Positions 1,113 through 25,582 of a stretch of DNA of 64,000 bases are shown piece after piece. The DNA is from an uncultured Chloroflexia bacterium (GTDB lineage: Bacteria > Chloroflexota > UBA6077 > JACCZL01). The position numbers were made by a program, and so were the translations under genes. Location of the stretch: positions 352,001 to 416,000 of the forward strand of contig CAVXYC010000023.1 in NCBI GenBank assembly GCA_963765765.1, given 5' to 3'. Positions within the stretch are counted from its first letter, which is position 1; each line of letters begins with the position of its first letter. The notes beneath the pieces are model-generated. The model saw only the letters and a program-made list of their open reading frames with translations. It ran no database searches and was not told the DNA's origin.

Positions 1113-2415
1113 ATGATTCCAGCCGATACATCAGCTATGCCGCACTTCTCAGTTCAGCCTGTCGAGCATCCTATTGATGCGACTGTCGAGCTACCGGGCT
1201 CCAAGAGCTTGACCAATCGCGCTTTGCTTATTGCCGCTCTTGCTCAGGGCAACTCGACGATTCGACGGGCGTTGTTCTCCGATGACACCCATGCGATGCA
1301 TGGTGCGCTCAGCGCGCTCGGGATCTCGGTCGATGCCGACCAACACTCTCAGACGTACGTCGTGCGCGGTGAGGGCGGACGTATTCCGGCATCGGAGGGA
1401 ACGCTCTTCGTAGGAAATGCCGGCACGGCGGCCAGGTTTCTGACGGCGGCGGTTGCGCTTGGCCGCGGTCGGTACGTTGTGGATGGCGTTCCGCGAATGC
1501 GCCAGCGTCCTATCCAGCCGCTCATCGATGGCTTGCAGCAGCTTGGAGTCGATGTCCAGAGCGGAATTCGATAATGGCTGCCCCCCAGTGATCGTACAAG
1601 CACAGGGCATCCCGGGCGGAACAGCCCATGTGCGAGGCGACATCTCCAGTCAGTACTTCAGTGCGCTGATGCAGGCCGCGCCCTACGCCGCATCTGATGT
1701 GGACGTGAGGGTGGACGGCAAGCTGGTGTCCGTTCCGTACATGGAGATGACGGCCGGAATCATGGCCGAGTTTGGCGTGCACGTGGACGTTCAGGGCGAG
1801 ACAGGCTTCCACGTACCCGCTGGACAGCGGTACGAGTCACGCGAATACGTCGTGGAGCCAGATGCATCCGGAGCCTCGTACTTCTTTGCCGCCGCGGCGG
1901 TGACTGGCGGTCACGTGCGCGTGCCATACCTGGGCCCACGGTCGCCCCAGGGTGACCTGGGACTTCTGGAAGTCCTGGAGCGGATGGGCTGTCGCGTCCA
2001 CCGCGAGGACGATGCGGTGGAATTGTGGGGCCCCGAGGTGCTCAACGGGGTGGATGCGGATTTTGAGCGAATGGGCGACGTCTTCAGCACCCTAGCGGCG
2101 ATCGCCCCATTCGCATCTGAGCCCGTCCGGATCACTGGAATTGCTCAGACCCACCACGAAGAATCTGATCGCCCTGTGGCGGTGGCCACGGAGCTTCGGC
2201 GAATGGGGATCACCGTTGAGGATCACTGGGACTCGCTGGTCATCTACCCGGGCTCGCCACGTGCTGCCGAGATCCACACGTACGATGACCATCGCATCGC
2301 CATGAGCTTCGCGATCACCGGTCTCAAGGCGACGGGCATCACGATTCTCGACCCCGGGTGCGTTGCGAAGACCTTCCCGGACTACTTCGAGGTTCTCACC
2401 TCAGCCACAGTCTGA
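1113..2415 (+). CDS. aroA: 3-phosphoshikimate 1-carboxyvinyltransferase (EPSP synthase), one frameshift near 1560
   Basis: LPGSKSLTNRAL, GNAGTAARFL, SSQYFSAL, DHRIAMSF and CVAKTFPDYF motifs split over ORFs 990..1574 and 1453..2415. Confidence 0.95.
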
Positions 2416-3521: not shown

Positions 3522-4440
3522 ATGTCAATCAGCATTGCCCAACCGCTCGCGATCCCCGGCCGGAAGGTTCGGACCCCGCGCCCCTGGCCCATCCAGCTTG
3601 TGGTCCAGCTTGCCACGAGAAAGCCGCTGGGATTTTTCGGGTTTGTCATTGTCGTCGTCAGCCTGCTCTTGGCTGTCTTCGCCGACGTCATTGCGCCGTA
3701 CGGATTTGACGAGCCGGACTTCGGCGCTACCCTCCAGGCCCCAAGCGCGGCCCACATCATGGGCACCGATTTTCTGGGGCGCGACCTGTTTAGCCGCCTG
3801 GTCCACGGTGCGCGCGTTTCGGTCTTCGTCATCGTTGGCGCCGTTGGGCTGGGCACGATGCTCTCCACGGCGCTAGGCGTAGTCTCCGGCTACTTCGGTG
3901 GCCGGGTCGACGCAGTTGTTCAGCGGTTTGTGGATGCGTGGATGAGCATCCCGCCGGTCCTGTTTTTTCTATTCATCATGGCCATCATTGGTCCCAGCGT
4001 TCAAAACATGATTTTAGTGCTTGGACTTCTGGCCATCAGAGAGAGCCGAGTGGTGCGGGGGTCCGATCTTGAGTGTGCGCGAGCATACGTATGTGGAGGC
4101 CGCGCGCGCCGTGGGCGCAAGCCAGCTGCGCATTCTTTTGCTTTACCTGCTGCCCAACGTGATGGTGCCCATCATCATCCTCACCACACTGCGGGCGGGC
4201 GCGGTGGTGCTGCTGGAAGCCACGCTGAGCTTCCTGGGCTACGGCATTCCGCCACCCTTCCCCGCGTGGGGCCGCATGTTGAGCGCGGAGTCCCGAACGT
4301 ATATGCTCGACGCGCCGTGGCTGGCCATATGGCCAGGCGTGTTCCTGAGCCTGACGGTATTCGGTTGGAACGTGCTGGGCGATGCGCTTCGAGATCTCCT
4401 CGATCCGCGCATGCAGGGCGCGGGCGGTCGAGCCCGCTAA
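3522..4440 (+). CDS. Peptide/nickel ABC transporter permease (DppC/OppC-like), frameshift near 4060
   Basis: GTDFLGRDLFSRLVHGARVS, YVEAARAVGAS, LGDALRDLLDPR. Confidence 0.9.
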
Positions 4441-4496
4441 GTCGGAGACTTGCGAATGCCGGCGTTCGTTGCGCCGGTCAATTGGGAGGAGTAGGT

Positions 4497-6220
4497 ATGG
4501 CTGACAGTTCGCACGTGTCAGGGCTCAGGGCGGGAGTCCGGGCGCCCTTCGACGCGGTCGCCCGCAATCGGCGCATCGTTGGCGCCGCGCTGATGGCGCT
4601 CATGCTGGTGGCGTGCTCGCGTGGTGCCGCGCCAGCGCAGAAACCTTCAGACTCCGCTGCCCGGCAACATCAAGACGGGCGGAACACTCACGTTCGTTCA
4701 GCGCTCCGATCCCACGAGCTGGGACATCTGGGGCGCGCAGCGCACGATTGATCCGACTCGCTCCGCCGCTGACATGGTCTTCTCTCCGCTGATCATCCCC
4801 GTGTCCGACCCCAACGGCGGTTGCGAGATCAAGTTCGAAGGCGAGCTGGCCGAGAGCTGGAAGTACCTGGACAACAAGACCATCGAGGTTAAGCTTCGTC
4901 CAGGGCGTGAAGTGGCACAACAAGGCGCCCATCAACGGTCGCGAGCTGACGTCCGATGATGTTGTCTATAGCTTCGAGGAGCGATTCAAGCAGGGCGGTG
5001 CAGGCGCGACGTTCTATGGGCGGACGGTCTTCGACCATGCCGAAGCAGTTGACCCGCTGACGGTAAAATTGCACCTCAAGATGCCGTACGCGAATTTTTT
5101 AGAAGACCTGTACACCACTGGCTGGGCGTGGATCGTTCCGCGCGGTCATGCCGGTCCGGACGGCAAAGAGTGGCTGGAGCAGCCCGAGAAGTCATGGATC
5201 GGTACGGGCCCGTTCATGTTCAAAGAGCATCAGCCCGGGGTGAAGACCGTCTTCGAGAAGAACCCGAACTACTTTCAAGTCGGGCAAGCCGTACGTCGAC
5301 CGAGTGGAGATGCTGACCATCGCCGACGAGTCCACGAAGTTGGCACAGATGCGCGCCGGATCGCTGGACGTCTATCCCTCGGCAGGGCCGCGCTCCGCAT
5401 CGGACCTGAAGCGCACGAACAGCGAGATGACCGTCAAGTCGTGCCCGAGCCGATTTACGGAGAGCCTGAACTTCCCGATGGACCAGGGCGCCCTGGGGCG
5501 ACGTTCGGGTTCGTCAGGCCGTCTCAATGGCAATCAACCGCGAGGCGCTCGATTAAGACGGTCCTGCATAGCCAGGACGCTTTTGCGGGCATTCTCTGGC
5601 CACTCGATCCCGAGGCGCTGAAGATGGAGGACTTTCCGCCCGAGTACCGCAAGTACCTGGAGTATCGGCCCGACGAGGCAAAGGCTCTGCTGGCTCAGGC
5701 GGGCTTCCCTAATGGCTTCTCGACGAAGATCATCTTCACGCCGATCTACGGCTCGCCCTGGAACGAGCTTTCCGAAGCTATCGTGACGATGCTTCGCGGC
5801 GTGGGGATCCAGGCCGACATGGAGCTGATGGAGTACGGCGCCTACATTCGTCAGATGGTAGTCAACGGCGAATTCGACGCGCCCGTCATGCGCTACGCGA
5901 ATCGCTTCTCGATCAGCGACATGGCGGGCGATAATCTTGTGGAGCAAGCACCCGGGCCGTGGATACCACGCGTCTTAAGAAGGTGCCCGACGCAAAGTTC
6001 GACGCGATGATCGAGGAGTATTGGGGCACGTTTGACGCGGCCAAGCGCAAGGATCAGGCGAAAGCTGATCCAGTACCACCTGGCTGAGAACGTTCCGCAA
6101 TTCTTCAATCCCACCTGGGGCAATGCGCTCATCGCTCAGCCATGGGTCAAGAACATCGCCTGGCGCGGCAACGAGAAGTTCTTCACCAACATCATCGATC
6201 AGGCGTGGATCGACAAATAA
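4497..6220 (+). CDS. ABC transporter substrate-binding lipoprotein, family 5, multiply frameshifted
   Basis: Lipobox LVAC, ELAESW, KWHNKAPINGRELTSDDVVYSF, IGTGPF, AKALLAQAG across successive ORFs. Confidence 0.85.
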
Positions 6221-22351: not shown

Positions 22352-22387
22352 CGAGCGCTCCGTGGAAGCGCTCCGTTTGGTAATGAG

Positions 22388-22403
22388 CGTTTCATGTGAA
22401 ACT
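22388..22403. promoter_or_regulatory. parS-like site (degenerate)
   Basis: CGTTTCATGTGAAACT versus consensus TGTTTCACGTGAAACA. Confidence 0.65.
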
Positions 22404-22466
22404 ACTATATGCTTGAAACCCGTGACGGGTGCCGCATGCTGTCATCATACGGGTGATGTTGCGGTC

Positions 22467-23395
22467 AGGGCGGACGAACTGCATCTCAGCACGATAGCCC
22501 GGTACTTTGCGGACGAACAAAAGGCGTACAAGCTCCTCGAACGCATCCGCTGGCCCAACGGCCCGGGGTGCCCGCACTGCGGCACGGTGGACGAGACGTA
22601 CTACCTCGAACCCAAGGACGGCCCCGCACCACGCGCACCGGCAAGCAGACGTTCCGCCGCGTTTGGAAGTGCGCGCAGTGCCGCCAGCAGTTCTCCGTCA
22701 CCGTGGGGACGATCTTCGAGGAAAGCAAGATCCCGCTGGCCAAGTGGCTCATGGCGGTGCATCTGATGTGTGCCGGCAAGAACGGCGTGGCCGCGCTGGA
22801 ACTGAAGCGCACCCTCGCTATCAGTTTCAAGTCGGCCTGGTTCATGTGCCATCGCATCCGCAAGGCGATGGAGCGGGAGCCATTGGCCAGCAAGCTCGGC
22901 GGGATCGTGGAGGCCGACGAGACGTACATCGGCGGGGTCCGGAAGGTCACCAAGGCCGGACGCCCCGGCAAGGACTCCCACAAGACCGCCGTGGTGAGCC
23001 TGGTGGAGCGCGGCGGGGAAGTCCGCCCGCATGTGGTCAAAAATGTCAGCAGCTTGACGCTGCGCGATGTCATCACGGCGAATGTGGAGCCGAGCGCCAC
23101 GCTGATGACCGATTCATTCCACGCGTACGACCGGGTCGGGCGCACGATGGCCAAGCATGATAAGGTGGACCACGGCGCGGGCGAGTATGTGCGGAGCGAA
23201 GCCCACGTGCAGACCGCCGAGAGCTACTTCAGCCAGCTCAAGCGACCACTCGATGGCACGCAGCATCACGTGAGCAAGCAGCGTCTCGACCGCTACGTCT
23301 CGGAGTTCGACCACCGCTACAACACGCGGAAAATGAGCGACGGCAAGCGGACGGAACTGGCGATTCAGAAGGCCGCGGGCAAGCGGCTGGTATAG
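22467..23395 (+). mobile_element. IS1595-family (ISXO2-like DDE) transposase, frameshift near 22625, start codon unclear
   Basis: RWPNGPGCPHCG zinc ribbon, WKCAQCRQQFSVTVGTIF, SAWFMCHRIR, VEADETYIGG, LMTD, AESYFSQLKR, EFDHRYN, GKRL. Confidence 0.93.
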
Positions 23396-23448
23396 AAGGA
23401 GCCAGTGACCGACTAGGCCCGGGCTCCTGAAAACGACGTATAATGTAG

Positions 23449-23552
23449 TGGTCCCCCGGACGGGGCTGGAACCCGTAGACCGGTTACCAGTTGACGCTAG
23501 GCCGGTCTCCCGATCCCAAATCGGGTGTGTCTACCAGTTCCACCACGGGGGG
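23449..23552 (-). tRNA. Non-canonical tRNA-like gene: class II (Leu-type) body, anticodon UGG (Pro), 32-nt variable arm, encoded CCA
   Basis: CCCCCCG-TG-GTGGAACTGGTAGACAC-A-CCCGA-TTTGGGA-TCGGG-[AGACCGG..CCGGTCT]-ACGGG-TTCCAGC-CCCGT-CCGGGGG-A-CCA. Confidence 0.8.
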
Positions 23553-23653
23553 CGGTGGGAAAGCCCCGGAGCCGCGCGTCTAGACAGCCTTGGCTCCGGG
23601 GCCGCTGATCTCCTCATATTCGAGCACCTCGTCTGATCAGTTGGGCGAGACCT

Positions 23654-23692
23654 AAGCCTCCGGAGTCGCGATCTTCCGGGGGCTTTTCTCTT
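23654..23692 (+). terminator. GC-rich hairpin with U-tract on + strand
   Basis: AAGCCTCCGGA..TCCGGGGGCTTTTCTCTT; also lies in the leader of the minus-strand tRNA transcript. Confidence 0.5.
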
Positions 23693-23703
23693 GCCGTCAG
23701 TTA

Positions 23704-23732
23704 AGTCTAGCAATTTATCTCCATCGAGGCAA
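23704..23732 (-). promoter_or_regulatory. Sigma70 promoter driving the tRNA-like RNA
   Basis: TTGCCT-17 nt-TAGACT with extended -10 TG. Confidence 0.7.
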
Positions 23733-23774
23733 GGCTTCTGAAGATAAAATCACGGCGATGGTTCTCAGTTCTTA

Positions 23775-23803
23775 TTGCCAAGTCGGAGATACGCTGGTAG
23801 ACT
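23775..23803 (+). promoter_or_regulatory. Sigma70 promoter driving the 23826 gene
   Basis: TTGCCA-17 nt-TAGACT with extended -10 TG; GGAGG RBS then ATG 23826. Confidence 0.7.
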
Positions 23804-23825
23804 TACAGCAGAACGGAGGCCAGAC

Positions 23826-24843
23826 ATGGTCCAAGCGGCAGTAGCGGAGCGGAAAAAGAAGGACCGCAGCCCGAGTTATCCGGCCATTGACCTGGAGACG
23901 GCGCTAGAACGAGCACGGCAGCTTCTCTCTAAAGAGGGTCGCCATTATGCGCCGATCAGCGCGATACTTCAGCACTGGGGATACGCCACTAAGAGCAGCG
24001 GCGGCCTGCTTACAACGGCCGCACTGAAGAAGTTCGGTCTCCTTGAAGATCAAGGGAGTGGCGAGAATCGGAAAGCACGGATCACTGATCTGGCATATCG
24101 CATCCTCATCGATGATCGGCCTAACTCAGAACAGCGTGCGGCGCTTATTCGCGAGGCGGCATTGACGCCGCCGATTCATGCTGAGCTGTGGCAGGAGCGC
24201 GGTCCCGACGGTTCACTCCCGTCCGACGTGACTTTGCGCTTCACTCTCCGCACTGAACGAGGCTTCACAGAGACCGCCGCTTCCGACTTGATCAACGAGT
24301 TTCGCCAGACGATAGCCTTCGCGGGGTTAGACCAGACTGATACAATGTCTGGTAGTGTCGAAGATAAAATCGACCCTGCGGGAGGCGAGCAAGCGACACC
24401 GCCGCCAGGGACTCAACTCGAAAAGCCGGGCTGCGAATCCGGCGAAGCCGCCAACGGCTGGTCCCGGCACGCAGTCTATAAATCTGCCGCTCGATGCTGC
24501 CGCCGGCGAATGGGCGACGCTGGTTGCGCCGTTCCCCCTCACTAAGGAGAAGTGGGATCAGATGCTGGTGGTCCTTGAAGCGATGAAACCGGCATTGATC
24601 GCCCAGCCAAAGCCCAAAGCCGGACCCGATAGGATGGTCGAGGAGATGGCCCAACCCTCGTCTATCACTGCCGAGGCGCAGGAACTGCTACAGAAGGTCG
24701 ATGACGGTGGGGTGCCGACGGCGATGACCGAGAACCTCAGGCGCATTGCCACCGAGAACGGCATTGCCGTCACTCCCGACATGAGCCCGAACAGCATCAT
24801 CGACGAACTTCAAGAAAGTCGCTTGATTGCTAGGGGGGCGTAA
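23826..24843 (+). CDS. Hypothetical winged-helix-like protein (possibly DUF5343-related), frameshift near 24430
   Basis: RSPSYPAIDLETAL..WGY..S.G...AALKKFGLLE..ITDLA..AALTPPIH N-domain, Pro-rich linker, small C-terminal domain(s). Confidence 0.65.
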
Positions 24844-24863
24844 GCCCCGCAGTACAATGAGGC

Positions 24864-25004
24864 ATGGCCGAGACCGCACGCCGCAAACGTGAGAAGCCGG
24901 TAAGCCTCGCGCCGCTCGATTTCGAGGACGCTCTACGCGGCCTGATCGCAACCGGCCTAGACCGAGGCCGCCGAGAAGAAGGCACAGAAGTAAGCGACGG
25001 CTGA
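24864..25004 (+). CDS. 46-aa small protein, not in ORF track
   Basis: MAETARRKREKPVSLAPLDFEDALRGLIATG..; TACAAT -10 five nt before ATG (possibly leaderless). Confidence 0.55.
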   Translation: MAETARRKREKPVSLAPLDFEDALRGLIATGLDRGRREEGTEVSDG

Positions 25005-25037
25005 TTTGGAGGCAAGCTCGGTCGCGACCGTCTGAGG

Positions 25038-25262
25038 ATGCAGGCGGGTGAGCGAGCGCCGTGCACACGCACCACCCTGCCCGTGCTGACCGGGGTGCTC
25101 TGCGGGAGACAGCGAAAGGGTCAACTGCTTAACGGCGACGTGAGCGGCGGTGCTGTCTACACTTATATCCAGTGCCCGACGTGCGGCCGTCTCTGGCGCC
25201 ACATCGAAGATTACGGTTACGGCGGCCACAGTTCGTCGTTCGAATCCGTCACGACGGACTAG
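25038..25262 (+). CDS. Small CxxC protein
   Basis: IQCPTCGRLWRH motif; GGAGG about 25 nt upstream; start uncertain. Confidence 0.35.
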   Translation: MQAGERAPCTRTTLPVLTGVLCGRQRKGQLLNGDVSGGAVYTYIQCPTCGRLWRHIEDYGYGGHSSSFESVTTD

Positions 25263-25332
25263 GTACTCGCTTCCCTCGCACCGTCGCACCACCTCCACCG
25301 TACTACTGTAACGATGGAGCTGACTATACGGG

Positions 25333-25348
25333 TGTTTCACGTGAAACA
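25333..25348. promoter_or_regulatory. parS site (perfect consensus)
   Basis: TGTTTCACGTGAAACA, within a 24-bp palindrome 25329-25352. Confidence 0.85.
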
Positions 25349-25566
25349 CCCGGTTGCTTGGCGCCCGTCGCCAGAACTGCGCTCGGCTTCGTCCGTCGCT
25401 CTCGCACTACGCGCTCACGTTATGCTGATAAAGCGCAGCTCGATCGGATCGTCCACGCAGTTCAGTGCGCTTCGCTCTGCTGAGATAGGCGCTGTCCAGT
25501 TTCGGTAAGCAATGGCTCTCTGAGAAAGAGTCGGTGTTTCCTTAGTCTTCAGCGCTATGCGCCGAG

Positions 25567-25582
25567 CGTTTCACGTGAAACG
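25567..25582. promoter_or_regulatory. parS site
   Basis: CGTTTCACGTGAAACG perfect palindrome. Confidence 0.8.

What the first reader, a model, noticed from the sequence alone, without database searches (positions are those of the whole stretch)
23449..23552. Chimeric tRNA: Leu-type body, Pro anticodon and 32-nt variable arm, next to an IS1595 transposase
Seen: a full 104-nt cloverleaf on the minus strand with encoded CCA, 6/7 acceptor pairs (C6:C67 mismatch), a 5-bp anticodon stem with loop TTTGGGA (anticodon UGG at 23516-23518), a 7-bp-plus variable stem and T-loop TTCCAGC. Known: tRNA-Pro is normally class I with a short variable loop. The D-loop (A15, G18G19, A20a, G21, G13.A22), A15:U48, A73 and long arm are LeuRS-type features, and bacterial LeuRS largely ignores the anticodon. 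C1:G72, A73 and G35/G36 are ProRS determinants. Precedents are nematode nev-tRNAs and bacterial allo-tRNAs. Inference: this could be a Pro-to-Leu missense tRNA, a dual-identity tRNA, or a decoy/antitoxin RNA carried as mobile cargo.
Basis: partly seen in the sequence, partly recalled or inferred. Interest (0 to 1): 0.9.

Follow-up and report, generated by a model that had tools for sequence, protein, structure and literature searches.

The report
Proline-anticodon, leucine-type tRNA on a transposon
A real, conserved transfer-RNA gene with the body of a leucine tRNA and a proline anticodon sits on a small transposon beside an uncharacterised DNA-binding protein; related elements in many bacteria carry similarly 'mismatched' tRNAs that might miscode proteins.

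Summary
Window 23552-23449 (-) is a 104-nt class II tRNA gene with anticodon UGG, a 32-nt variable arm and an encoded CCA. ARAGORN misses it, but the Rfam tRNA model scores 41 bits (cut-off 29).

It is not an assembly quirk or a lone pseudogene. Relatives keep UGG in two other Chloroflexota genomes (G001, G110) and two viral-contig lineages. Compensatory changes occur in 12 of 21 stem pairs.

The D-loop/core set used by LeuRS is complete. C1:G72, A73 and G35/G36 also fit ProRS, so the charged amino acid is open.

The gene lies in a 3.2-kb insertion (22385-25581) bracketed by an 18-nt repeat found nowhere else in the genome. The insertion also holds an IS1595 transposase and a winged-helix gene. 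IS1595 transposase or a remnant adjoins 4 of 5 lineages.

The winged-helix family is widespread and unnamed. In 43 of 80 loci a tRNA T-loop motif lies within 500 nt upstream, mostly anticodon/identity-mismatched tRNAs: Ala-type bodies with stop, Asp or Arg anticodons, and Ser-type bodies with UUA.

Best reading (0.4): a regulated miscoding tRNA carried as selfish or conflict cargo. The window's copy looks partly decayed: both neighbouring genes are frameshifted, and it has C6:C67 and C57. No expression or charging evidence was obtained.

The parts
22385..22402 (.). Left copy of an 18-nt repeat with a palindromic core; left boundary of the 3.2-kb inserted segment
   Evidence: the repeat finder family D1. 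The core motif occurs only 3 times in the 6.49-Mb genome, all in this locus.
22362..23395 (+). IS1595-family transposase gene, split over two frames: Zn-ribbon part in the frame of 22362-22766, DDE part in 22568-23395. It is convergent with the tRNA.
   Evidence: PF12762 E 2.8e-37. The frames were read. The N-terminal and DDE parts match the G110 transposase at 60% and 59% identity. It is the only close copy in the genome.
23449..23552 (-). Class II (tRNA-Leu-like) tRNA gene with anticodon UGG (23516-23518), a 32-nt variable arm, A73 and an encoded CCA
   Evidence: Homologues and covariation.
23563..23603 (-). GC-rich hairpin 10 nt 5' of the tRNA. It is conserved with compensatory changes in G001, and analogous hairpins precede the partner tRNAs in other loci.
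   Evidence: Alignment A1; the upstream sequences listed.
23654..23695 (+). Terminator-like hairpin plus T-run on the strand antisense to the tRNA, lying between the tRNA and the winged-helix gene
   Evidence: Consensus scan; not a functional test.
23775..23803 (+). Sigma-70-like promoter match in front of the winged-helix gene
   Evidence: 9 of 12 hexamer positions; consensus match only.
23775..24843 (+). Winged-helix gene of the 'RSPSYP' family, divergent from the tRNA and interrupted by a +1 frame change near 24404. The N-terminal part is in frame 23775-24545 and the C-terminal part in frame 24355-24843.
   Evidence: AF2 model of the closest full-length relative, pLDDT 84.8.
25330..25347 (.). 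Internal third copy of the palindromic repeat
25564..25581 (.). Right copy of the 18-nt repeat; right boundary of the insertion, 14 nt from the stop of the glcF-like gene
   Evidence: G001 has a single copy about 50 nt after its glcF-like orthologue.

Best explanation
SHOWN. This is a bona fide member of a conserved family of class II, tRNA-Leu-derived tRNA genes that keep a proline anticodon (UGG). The family travels with IS1595-type transposases and a winged-helix (wHTH) gene. In this genome the three lie together in a 3.2-kb insertion.

INFERRED. Bacterial LeuRS reads the discriminator and the D/T-loop core and ignores the anticodon. The tRNA is therefore most likely leucylated and, when expressed, inserts Leu at CCN (Pro) codons. 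The adjacent wHTH protein is the likely transcriptional controller of the tRNA gene. The cassette would then act as a regulated translation-poisoning module, serving as an addiction or conflict device for the mobile element.

The same logic would explain sister cassettes that pair the wHTH gene with Ala- or Ser-bodied tRNAs bearing stop, Asp or Arg anticodons. Ala, Ser and Leu are the three identities whose synthetases do not read the anticodon.

The window's own copy is probably weakened or silent. It has C6:C67 and C57 in the T-loop, and both the wHTH and transposase genes are frameshifted.
For: Real tRNA:
- Rfam scores it 41 bits against a cut-off of 29.

Conservation:
- G001 is 82% identical.
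- G110, in another Chloroflexota family, matches at 79.5% over 88 nt.
- Viral contigs L127/L138 and L135/L136 also carry relatives.
- All have a 7-nt loop with U33, UGG and a purine at position 37.
- Twelve of 21 pairs have compensatory changes, 94% of cells pair, and 0 of 500 shuffles reach this.
- With the variable stem included, 11 of 27 pairs are compensatory and the variable stem is 100% paired.

Leu-type body:
- The nearest tRNAs in the own genome are Leu isoacceptors (54 and 51 bits with model R1; best global alignment is Leu(GAG)).
- The E. coli LeuRS set (A73, A15-U48, G18G19, A20a, U54:A58, G19:C56) is present. The anticodon and variable arm are dispensable for LeuRS according to PMC9976931.

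Not needed for normal decoding:
- Normal tRNA-Pro(UGG) and tRNA-Pro(CGG) genes exist elsewhere in the genome.

Mobile:
- The gene is single copy.
- It was found in only G000 and G001 among 39 genomes of the order, and in 2 of 401 genomes of the phylum by pattern.
- The flanks differ between G000, G001 and G110.
- An 18-nt repeat unique to the locus brackets the segment.
- IS1595 transposase or a remnant lies beside 4 of 5 lineages.

Family pattern:
- The wHTH homologue is syntenic in G000, G001 and L127.
- Of 80 upstream regions, 38 have a tRNA T-loop motif on the divergent strand and 8 on the same strand. The background is 0.014 per 500 nt.
- In 27 of 38 rows the partner has G1-C72, G2-C71, G3.U70 and A73, with covarying stems and non-Ala loops.
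- Two Ser-type class II partners carry the same UUUACA loop.

Precedent:
- Allo-tRNAs with mismatched anticodons miscode and kill E. coli when induced, and they lie near toxin-antitoxin and transposon genes (PMC5389517, passages read).
Against: There are no expression or charging data. The public runs held only fragments, and none covered the tRNA.

ProRS determinants are also present: C1:G72, A73, G35 and G36. The genome's ProRS is the Thermus/archaeal type (PF09180 hit, no INS domain found). From recalled knowledge, that type leans on the anticodon, so prolylation, which would be harmless, is a live alternative.

The window's copy has the only broken Watson-Crick cell in the four-sequence alignment (C6:C67) and a pyrimidine at T-loop position 57. 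Both neighbouring genes are frameshifted.

The repressor role of the wHTH protein rests only on fold and gene arrangement. Foldseek found no PDB hit below E 0.001. In L127 and G110 the wHTH gene is co-directional with the tRNA, not divergent.

In sister cassettes with UUA-type tRNAs the element's own genes do not avoid TAA stops (anchor gene: 7 TAA, 4 TAG, 6 TGA). A subgroup has a 10-nt rather than a 7-nt loop, and most have C37. These features are odd for decoders.

The extreme conservation of the variable-arm loop (18 of 18 between G000 and G001, 13 of 18 with G110) hints at a binding function unrelated to decoding.
Confidence: 0.4

Rival explanations
1. It is a proline-accepting tRNA in an unusual body. 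ProRS charges it through G35/G36 (plus C1:G72 and A73 in the Chloroflexota copies), so it decodes CCN correctly. The mobile element or phage carries it as a spare tRNA-Pro whose foreign shape escapes a tRNA-targeting nuclease, or supplies CCA decoding.
For: C1:G72, A73, G35 and G36 are present, and the host's own tRNA-Pro genes also start with C1. The genome's ProRS is the Thermus/archaeal type with the PF09180 C-terminal domain, and no INS editing domain was found. One lineage sits in a podophage between the portal and terminase genes, where ordinary helper tRNAs are common. In G001 the next gene is a NYN-domain RNase-like protein matching PADLOC HEC-09.
Against: The viral versions lack G72: L127 has G1-C72 and L135 has G1.U72. 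All five keep the full LeuRS core set, including A15 and U48, where bacterial tRNA-Pro identity involves the 15:48 pair (PMC9976931 passage). The sister cassettes use exactly the Ala, Ser and Leu bodies with non-cognate anticodons, which this reading does not explain.
Confidence: 0.2
2. It is a tRNA-shaped RNA with a non-translational job in the mobile element. Candidates are a ligand of the wHTH protein or the transposase, an RNase P/Z processing signal, the target of an antisense RNA, or an RNA antitoxin or decoy.
For: The variable-arm loop is invariant between G000 and G001 while the stems change, and 13 of 18 positions are kept in G110. A conserved hairpin precedes the tRNA in nearly all loci. 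Terminator-like and promoter-like sites lie on the antisense strand. In 28 of 88 loci an IS1-like transposase gene starts about 30 nt after the partner tRNA-like on the same strand. Some sister RNAs have 10-nt loops and C37. No TAA avoidance is seen.
Against: All five Leu-type members keep a textbook anticodon arm: a 5-bp stem, a 7-nt loop, U33 and a purine at 37, with UGG invariant. Note that L135 was found with a pattern that required UGG. The choice of Ala, Ser and Leu bodies and the switch from UUA to CUA within one loop frame (L103) look like decoding logic. The variable-loop motif is not kept in the viral versions.
Confidence: 0.2
3. In this particular genome the gene is a dead relic of such a cassette and does nothing now.
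For: It has the C6:C67 mismatch where G001 has U:A and G110 has A:U. The T-loop has C at position 57, whereas G001, G110, L127 and L135 have A or G. The wHTH gene is frameshifted near 24404. The transposase is split over two frames. About 750 nt of non-coding filler follow the wHTH gene.
Against: Twenty of 21 stem pairs are intact, the CCA is kept, and the variable loop is identical to G001's. One acceptor mismatch is tolerated in many tRNAs. Frameshifts in a metagenome-assembled genome can be assembly errors.
Confidence: 0.15
4. It is an ordinary host tRNA gene that merely serves as the integration site of an island, and looks chimeric because of recombination at the attachment site.
For: Some wHTH-family loci sit beside canonical-looking tRNAs (Thr CGU, GGU, UGU; Asn; Phe within 1.4-2.7 kb).
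Against: The tRNA is absent from 37 of 39 genomes of the order. It moves with the wHTH gene between unrelated flanks. The wHTH gene lies on the 5' side, not the 3' side used by integrases, and no integrase is present. The 5' and 3' acceptor strands co-vary. The repeat that brackets the insertion is outside the tRNA.
Confidence: 0.03

Closest known systems
Bacterial allo-tRNAs (Mukai et al., Nucleic Acids Res 2017, PMC5389517; abstract and passages read)
   Same: [quoted passage not shown] Both are patchy in soil bacteria and lie near transposon-related and toxin-antitoxin genes. Some allo-tRNAs are active miscoders that are toxic on induction, and some copies are degraded.
   Different: Allo-tRNAs have 8/4 or 9/3 acceptor/T stems and serine identity. 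This tRNA has the canonical 7/5 geometry, A73 and a tRNA-Leu D-loop/core. Its linkage to the RSPSYP winged-helix family and to IS1595/IS1 transposases does not appear in the passages I read.
Nematode nev-tRNAs (Hamashima et al., Nucleic Acids Res 2012, PMC3333845; title and start of abstract seen in the listing)
   Same: Both are class II tRNAs with an anticodon that corresponds to neither Leu nor Ser.
   Different: The nev-tRNAs are eukaryotic, nematode-specific nuclear genes, not mobile cargo. The statement that their anticodons are Gly/Ile and that they are charged with Leu is recalled, not read here.
tRNA-ProX family / deliberate mistranslation in bacteria (J Biol Chem 2023, PMC10404621; title and start of abstract seen in the listing)
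   Same: Both are natural bacterial tRNAs whose identity and anticodon disagree.
   Different: As recalled, the mismatch there runs the other way round: proline identity with non-Pro anticodons, together with a dedicated ProRS paralogue. No extra synthetase gene lies in this cassette.
IS1595 family insertion sequences with passenger genes
   Same: There is a DDE_Tnp_IS1595 domain plus an N-terminal zinc ribbon. The family is related to IS1, and some members carry cargo genes.
   Different: No terminal inverted repeats of the IS were identified. The bracketing repeat looks like a duplicated host palindrome. I know of no described tRNA cargo. The searches found none.
Phage-encoded tRNAs
   Same: One lineage (L135/L136) lies in a podophage between the portal and terminase genes.
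   Different: Ordinary phage tRNAs match identity to anticodon. Here a remnant of an IS1595 transposase follows the tRNA even in the phage, so the tRNA probably arrived as IS cargo.

Membership tests
tRNA (Rfam RF00005) | Covariance-model score at or above the curated gathering score | tested here: met
   41 bits against 29, full model 1-71. It is lost by the speed filters when the whole window is searched, and ARAGORN misses it.
tRNA (Rfam RF00005) | Four cloverleaf stems maintained by compensatory change among relatives | tested here: met
   Twelve of 21 pairs are compensatory and 94% of cells pair, against 37-48% in slid controls.
Bacterial tRNA-Leu (LeuRS identity set as quoted for E. coli in PMC9976931) | A73; A15-U48; G18G19 and A20a in the D-loop; the G18:U55, G19:C56 and U54:A58 partners present | tested here: met
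   Read from the sequence against the passage. This is a sequence check only, with no charging assay.
Bacterial tRNA-Leu (LeuRS identity set as quoted for E. coli in PMC9976931) | A leucine anticodon (NAG or NAA) | tested here: not met
   The anticodon is UGG in all five lineages.
Bacterial tRNA-Pro | Class I body with a short variable loop | tested here: not met
   The variable region is 31-33 nt with a covarying 6-bp stem.
Bacterial tRNA-Pro | G35, G36, A73 and G72 (acceptor and anticodon determinants; recalled set) | tested here: met
   Present in G000 and G001. G72 is absent in L127, L135 and G110.
allo-tRNA | 12-bp acceptor branch split 8/4 or 9/3 (PMC5389517 abstract) | tested here: not met
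   The geometry is a canonical 7-bp acceptor plus 5-bp T stem.
allo-tRNA | Serine identity (G73 and SerRS recognition) | tested here: not met
   It has A73 and C2:G71, which are listed as determinants against SerRS in PMC9976931.
IS1595 family element | DDE_Tnp_IS1595 catalytic domain and N-terminal zinc ribbon | tested here: met
   PF12762 E 2.8e-37. The zinc-ribbon part is homologous to the G110 protein, which hits PF12760. The gene is split over two frames.
IS1595 family element | Terminal inverted repeats and a short target duplication | tested here: inconclusive
   The only bracket found is an 18-nt repeat with a palindromic core. No IS-type inverted repeats were recognised.
DUF5343 (PF17278) | Pfam score over the cut-off for the winged-helix partner | tested here: not met
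   There is no Pfam hit for the G000, G001 or P0002 proteins, even at E <= 1. The G110 partner does hit (6.9e-18). The link between the two families is weak (hhalign E 0.003, probability 10%; Atlas score 0.86).

The most novel reading that the evidence does not exclude
There may be a cross-phylum class of small IS1/IS1595-type mobile cassettes whose cargo is a 'miscoding tRNA' kept in check by a dedicated winged-helix regulator. The tRNA bodies would be those read by the three anticodon-blind synthetases (Leu, Ala, Ser), fitted with Pro, stop, Asp or Arg anticodons. Release of the tRNA would poison translation proteome-wide, working as an RNA toxin for addiction to the element or for abortive infection. 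The window's Leu-bodied UGG tRNA would be the Chloroflexota/IS1595 version.
Probability: 0.25. Interest if true: 0.9.

Novelty: new variant of a known kind. Interest (0 to 1): 0.75.

Why it matters
Natural tRNAs whose identity and anticodon disagree are rare, and each case has changed how fixed the genetic code is thought to be. This one adds three things.

1. It is a bacterial and phage Leu-type tRNA aimed at proline codons, conserved with covariation.

2. It has a reproducible genetic address. An unnamed winged-helix family lies beside it, with at least 368 detectable relatives, together with IS1/IS1595 transposases. That address can be used to find many more such tRNAs that standard tRNA finders and Rfam thresholds miss.

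3. The bodies used are Ala, Ser and Leu types. This pattern argues that the mismatch is selected rather than accidental.

If the tRNAs are active, mobile elements would be using deliberate miscoding as a weapon or an addiction device. The cassettes would also be a source of orthogonal suppressor and missense tRNAs. If the tRNAs are inactive in translation, they are a new class of tRNA-shaped RNAs tied to transposition.

Tried and rejected
Exact-word searches for the variable-arm loop:
- The 18-mer in genome contigs gave 6 loci. Only 1 (the G001 contig) is a tRNA; the other 5 are chance matches in coding or unrelated DNA.
- The 20-mer in metagenome contigs gave 0 loci.
- A 20-nt match in G004 lies in non-tRNA sequence and was dropped as chance.

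Expression. The look-up of sequencing runs gave only small shares (at most 0.15) in soil and rhizosphere runs. Laying X1, X3, X4 and X15 gave short contig pieces. None spans the tRNA. The RNA-run pieces on 23507-23547 continue into unlike sequence on both sides, so they are probably other tRNAs. This is no evidence either way on expression.

Function of the winged-helix protein.
- There were no hits in Pfam, PHROGs, NCBIfam or PADLOC.
- The AF2 model (pLDDT 84.8) found no PDB fold match below E 0.001, only generic winged-helix regulators.
- The ESM Atlas returned only 'hypothetical protein' clusters.
- No paper mentions DUF5343.
- DUF5343 genes proper are not tRNA-linked: 1 of 10 loci, and that tRNA is a normal tRNA-Gln.

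Is the tRNA needed to read the element's own genes? This was rejected. All element ORFs are open under the standard code, and conserved Leu positions of the winged-helix protein are Leu codons. There is no TAA avoidance beside UUA-type tRNAs. The +1 frame change in the window's winged-helix gene does not sit at a CCC-N site, and intact homologues lack it.

Other negatives:
- An antisense promoter inside the variable-arm loop is unlikely. A -35-like word is present but there is no acceptable -10 (reading).
- Terminal inverted repeats were sought for the IS1-type 2.2-kb block in L043, L046 and L051; none was found.
- The odd Leu-like UCA tRNA on contig C15 is not part of a similar cassette.
- L137 and L139, from the viral pattern scan, are tRNA-Leu genes with an intron-like insertion and are not relatives.

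Literature. The searches turned up no description of a Leu-bodied Pro-anticodon bacterial tRNA or of this cassette. That is absence in those searches only.

Supplementary files were not consulted.

Unpublished genomes. G006 is one of the 10 family genomes counted. G048 is one of the 6 of 401 genomes and one of the 10 of 66 (loci L133, L150). No conclusion rests on either alone.
Full report
THE OBJECT

- The acceptor stem is 7 bp with one C6:C67 mismatch.
- The D arm is GTGG / AACTGGTAG / ACAC.
- The anticodon stem is a perfect 5 bp, with loop TTTGGGA (U33, UGG, G37).
- The variable region is 32 nt.
- The T arm has loop TTCCAGC.
- A73 and an encoded CCA follow.

ARAGORN reports no tRNA in the window. 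Rfam at gathering threshold over the full window reports nothing. The Rfam tRNA model does match when only 23200-23800 is searched: 41 bits against a gathering score of 29, E 2.8e-07, covering the whole model with about 30 inserted bases in the variable region. The earlier miss is therefore a filter effect.

Free-energy folding alone is unconvincing. The MFE is not a cloverleaf, with z = -1.72.

THE GENOME

The window lies in a 6.49-Mb, 33-contig metagenome-assembled genome that is 91.8% complete with 6.85% contamination. The contig of the same-genus relative is titled Chloroflexota bacterium.

ARAGORN finds 51 tRNAs in the genome. They include ordinary tRNA-Pro(UGG), tRNA-Pro(CGG) and five tRNA-Leu genes. 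The odd tRNA is therefore supernumerary. It is single copy.

CONSERVATION

BLAST over 61 related genomes finds one true homologue, in the same-genus genome G001, at 82% identity over all 104 nt. The alignment shows several things.
- UGG is kept.
- Double compensatory changes occur at anticodon-stem pairs 28:42 and 31:39 and in the variable stem.
- G001 has a U6:A67 pair where the window has C:C.
- G001 has a canonical T-loop, TTCAAAT.

A covariance model built from the two sequences (R1) scores 124 and 130 bits on them. The next best hits in 10 family genomes and 39 order genomes are ordinary tRNA-Leu genes at 60.3 bits or less.

Further members came from two routes.
- The conserved neighbour gene led to viral contig L127/L138 (56 bits).
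- A D-arm-plus-UGG pattern led to the podophage contigs L135/L136 and to G110, a member of another Chloroflexota family (2 of 401 genomes matched).

Because that pattern demanded UGG, L135 and G110 cannot count as independent evidence that the anticodon is conserved. G001 and L127 can.

On G000, G001, L127 and L135:
- 94% of stem cells pair, against 37-48% with slid partners;
- 12 of 21 pairs show changes on both sides;
- 0 of 500 shuffles reach the observed values.

On the three Chloroflexota sequences the 6-bp variable stem is 100% paired, with 3 compensatory pairs. The only broken Watson-Crick cell in the four-sequence set is the window's C6:C67. G13.A22 is unpaired in all of them.

It also makes a mis-assembled anticodon very unlikely.

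IDENTITY

With R1, the closest tRNAs in the own genome are Leu(GAG) at 54 bits and Leu(UAA) at 51 bits. Global alignment also ranks Leu(GAG) first.

The review PMC9976931 (passages read) states that for E. coli LeuRS, A73 is crucial while the anticodon and the long arm are not. It adds that A15-U48, G18G19, A20a and the G18:U55, G19:C56 and U54:A58 interactions are essential, and that C2-G71 acts against SerRS. Every one of these is present in the window's tRNA.

The acceptor also begins C1:G72, like the host's tRNA-Pro genes and unlike its tRNA-Leu genes. G35, G36 and A73 are proline determinants; that set is recalled. The genome encodes the Thermus/archaeal type of ProRS: PF09180 scores 80.8 bits and no INS/YbaK-type domain was found. 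As I recall, that type depends mainly on the anticodon.

G72 is not kept in L127, L135 or G110. Leucylation is therefore expected from the body, and prolylation cannot be excluded. The sequence cannot decide between them.

THE NEIGHBOURHOOD IN THE WINDOW

Downstream of the tRNA's 3' end, and convergent with it, lies an IS1595-type transposase gene (PF12762, E 2.8e-37). Its zinc-ribbon part and DDE part are in different frames.

Upstream, and divergent, lies a gene (23775-24545) with no hit in Pfam, PHROGs, NCBIfam or PADLOC. Its C-terminal third continues in the +1 frame (24355-24843), as shown by 46% identity to the tail of the 320-aa homologue P0002.

An 18-nt repeat with a palindromic core occurs at 22385, 25330 and 25564 and nowhere else in the 6.49-Mb genome. 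The outer copies bracket transposase, tRNA and winged-helix gene, between an alcohol-dehydrogenase-like gene and a glcF-like gene. G001 has one copy of the palindrome about 50 nt after its glcF-like orthologue, on a contig that lacks the cassette.

I read this as a 3.2-kb insertion into, or next to, a native palindrome.

THE CONSERVED PARTNER

G001 has a homologue of the divergent gene in the same position (31% identity, E 2e-22), although all other flanking genes differ. The gene after its tRNA is a NYN-domain protein matching the PADLOC candidate HEC-09.

The family is large: 368 proteins at E <= 0.001 among the candidates scored, all 'hypothetical'. It has an invariant N-terminal RSPxYP motif.

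An AlphaFold model of P0002 (pLDDT 84.8) shows an N-terminal winged helix, a disordered linker and a small beta-hairpin/helix domain. Foldseek finds nothing below E 0.001 in the PDB.

The family is patchy, occurring in 6 of 401 Chloroflexota genomes.

A WIDER PATTERN

I fetched 80 metagenome loci, the best 80 of 226 confirmed, and 6 viral loci. I then examined the 500 nt upstream of the gene in the 78 loci with enough sequence, plus G000 and G001.

A tRNA T-loop motif lies on the divergent strand in 38 of these 80 regions and on the same strand in 8 of 80. Elsewhere in the same loci there are 18 hits in 624,148 strand-bases, or 0.014 per 500 nt. Allowing for three loci that have both, 43 of 80 regions carry a motif, and 73 of the 80 upstream sequences are distinct.

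The partners are mostly not normal tRNAs.
- Ala-type minis. Twenty-seven of the 38 divergent ones (26 distinct) are RNAs of about 70 nt with perfect, covarying 7-bp acceptor stems. They have invariant G1-C72, G2-C71, G3.U70 and A73, the alanine identity set (recalled), and a minimal D arm.
  - Fifteen of the 26 have the loop UUUACA or UUUAGA, which reads as UUA, an ochre anticodon.
  - One has CUCUACA (CUA).
  - The others read GUC, GCG, UCG or similar (by eye).
- Ser-type. Two same-strand partners (L080, L101) are Ser-type class II tRNAs with G73 and the same CUUUACA loop.
- Leu-type. G000, G001, L127 and G110 are Leu-type with UGG.
- Other mismatches. A few have UGC anticodons on non-Ala bodies (L053, L071, L089, and L134 in G029).
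- Canonical-looking. Some look normal, such as the Thr tRNAs in L075, L078 and L117.

Rfam at gathering threshold reports none of the minis.

Ala, Ser and Leu are the identities whose synthetases do not read the anticodon. Finding just these bodies under foreign anticodons is what one expects of working suppressor or missense tRNAs.

There are caveats. Most UUA-type loops have C at position 37. A subgroup folds with a 10-nt loop. The genes of those cassettes do not avoid TAA stops.

TRANSPOSASES

In 28 of 88 loci by clustering, or 29 of 86 by tblastn, an IS1-like DDE transposase (PF03400) starts about 30 nt after the partner tRNA-like, on the same strand. In 24 of 88 loci a protein of about 100 aa follows the winged-helix gene. 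L043, L046 and L051 share just this 2.2-kb block between unrelated flanks.

For the Leu-UGG lineages the transposase is IS1595-type.
- G000 and G110 have it convergent, 35-55 nt beyond the tRNA 3' end, and the two proteins are 59% identical.
- L138 has one divergent, about 400 nt upstream, 49% identical.
- The podophage L135 has a 37-aa zinc-ribbon remnant 41 nt after the tRNA (62% identity, E 4.7e-10).
- G001 has none.

In G110 the partner protein hits DUF5343 (6.9e-18). That family is at best distantly related to the RSPSYP family. A second odd tRNA (class I body, loop CCGCUAA) precedes the Leu-UGG tRNA there.

HOW IT MOST LIKELY WORKS

Shown: it is a conserved, structured, supernumerary class II tRNA with a Pro anticodon. 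It is carried on IS1595-linked mobile DNA together with a winged-helix gene.

Inferred: LeuRS charges it, so it would insert Leu at CCN codons. The winged-helix protein controls its transcription from the shared intergenic region. The cassette uses conditional miscoding as a toxin, for addiction to the element or for conflict with phages.

The allo-tRNA work gives precedent for toxicity of induced mismatched tRNAs and for their genomic company (PMC5389517, passages read).

The window's copy carries lesions in the tRNA (C6:C67 and C57), in the presumed regulator and in the transposase. One would expect this if a toxic cassette is being disarmed, but it is equally what a decaying relic looks like. 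I put 0.4 on the miscoding-cassette reading. The remainder is split between a Pro-accepting variant, a non-translational tRNA-like role and a dead relic.

UNEXPLAINED (note 6)
- The variable-arm loop is nearly invariant in the Chloroflexota copies.
- A GC hairpin sits immediately 5' of almost every partner tRNA. Its U-run is often on the antisense strand, and a terminator-like site lies at 23654-23695 on the + strand.
- A TAYAATG word abuts the tRNA 3' end on the opposite strand in G000, G001 and G110.
- A promoter-like site lies on the antisense strand in G001.

Together these hint at antisense transcription across the tRNA. I could not test this.

LIMITS
- No expression or aminoacylation evidence was obtained.
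- tRNAscan-SE isotype models were not available.
- The anticodon assignments for the mini-tRNAs rest on my reading of folds and a crude script.
- The metagenome loci are the best 80 of 226, not a random sample.
- Two unpublished genomes (G006, G048) are included in some tallies, as stated under Tried and rejected.

Noticed in passing
G000 contig C15:168062-168147 (-), outside the window: ARAGORN calls this 'tRNA-SeC(tca)'. By sequence it is a tRNA-Leu(UAA)-like class II gene with a UCA (opal-reading) anticodon and a degenerate 5' acceptor strand. There is no winged-helix or transposase homologue within 6 kb on either side.
   Followed up: partly
L141 (G110:C250) about 1545-1620 (-): A second odd tRNA lies directly 5' of the Leu-type UGG tRNA. 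It has a class I body and the loop CCGCUAA (C33, anticodon GCU, a serine anticodon on a class I body).
   Followed up: no
L004 (G001:C564) 4277-4813 (+): The gene following the G001 copy of the tRNA is a NYN-domain protein (PF01936, E 7e-10) that matches the PADLOC candidate defence family HEC-09 (E 8e-38) and phrog_7929.
   Followed up: no
L043, L046, L051, L054, L063, L064, L069 and others (metagenome loci), about 130-300 nt upstream of the winged-helix gene: These are tRNA-like genes of about 70 nt with G3.U70/A73 acceptor stems, a 4-nt D-loop and the loop motif UUUACA. They are not reported by Rfam at gathering threshold, and ARAGORN labels some of them 'tRNA-Stop(tta)'.
   Followed up: partly
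window 24843-25563: About 720 nt between the winged-helix gene and the right repeat hold no convincing ORF and contain an inverted pair of the palindromic repeat (25334-25353 and 25562-25581). The small protein of about 100 aa that follows the winged-helix gene in 24 of 88 other loci is missing here.
   Followed up: partly
L137 / L139 (viral contigs): A tRNA-Leu-like gene has a long insertion starting inside the anticodon loop, which looks like an intron. It matched my pattern by accident.
   Followed up: no
G000 contig C1:366691-366775 and C30:173727-173811: ARAGORN makes 85-nt calls here ('Pro(ggg)' and 'Met(cat)') that do not look like tRNAs by eye and are probably false positives. If so, no tRNA-Pro(GGG) was found in this incomplete assembly.
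   Followed up: no
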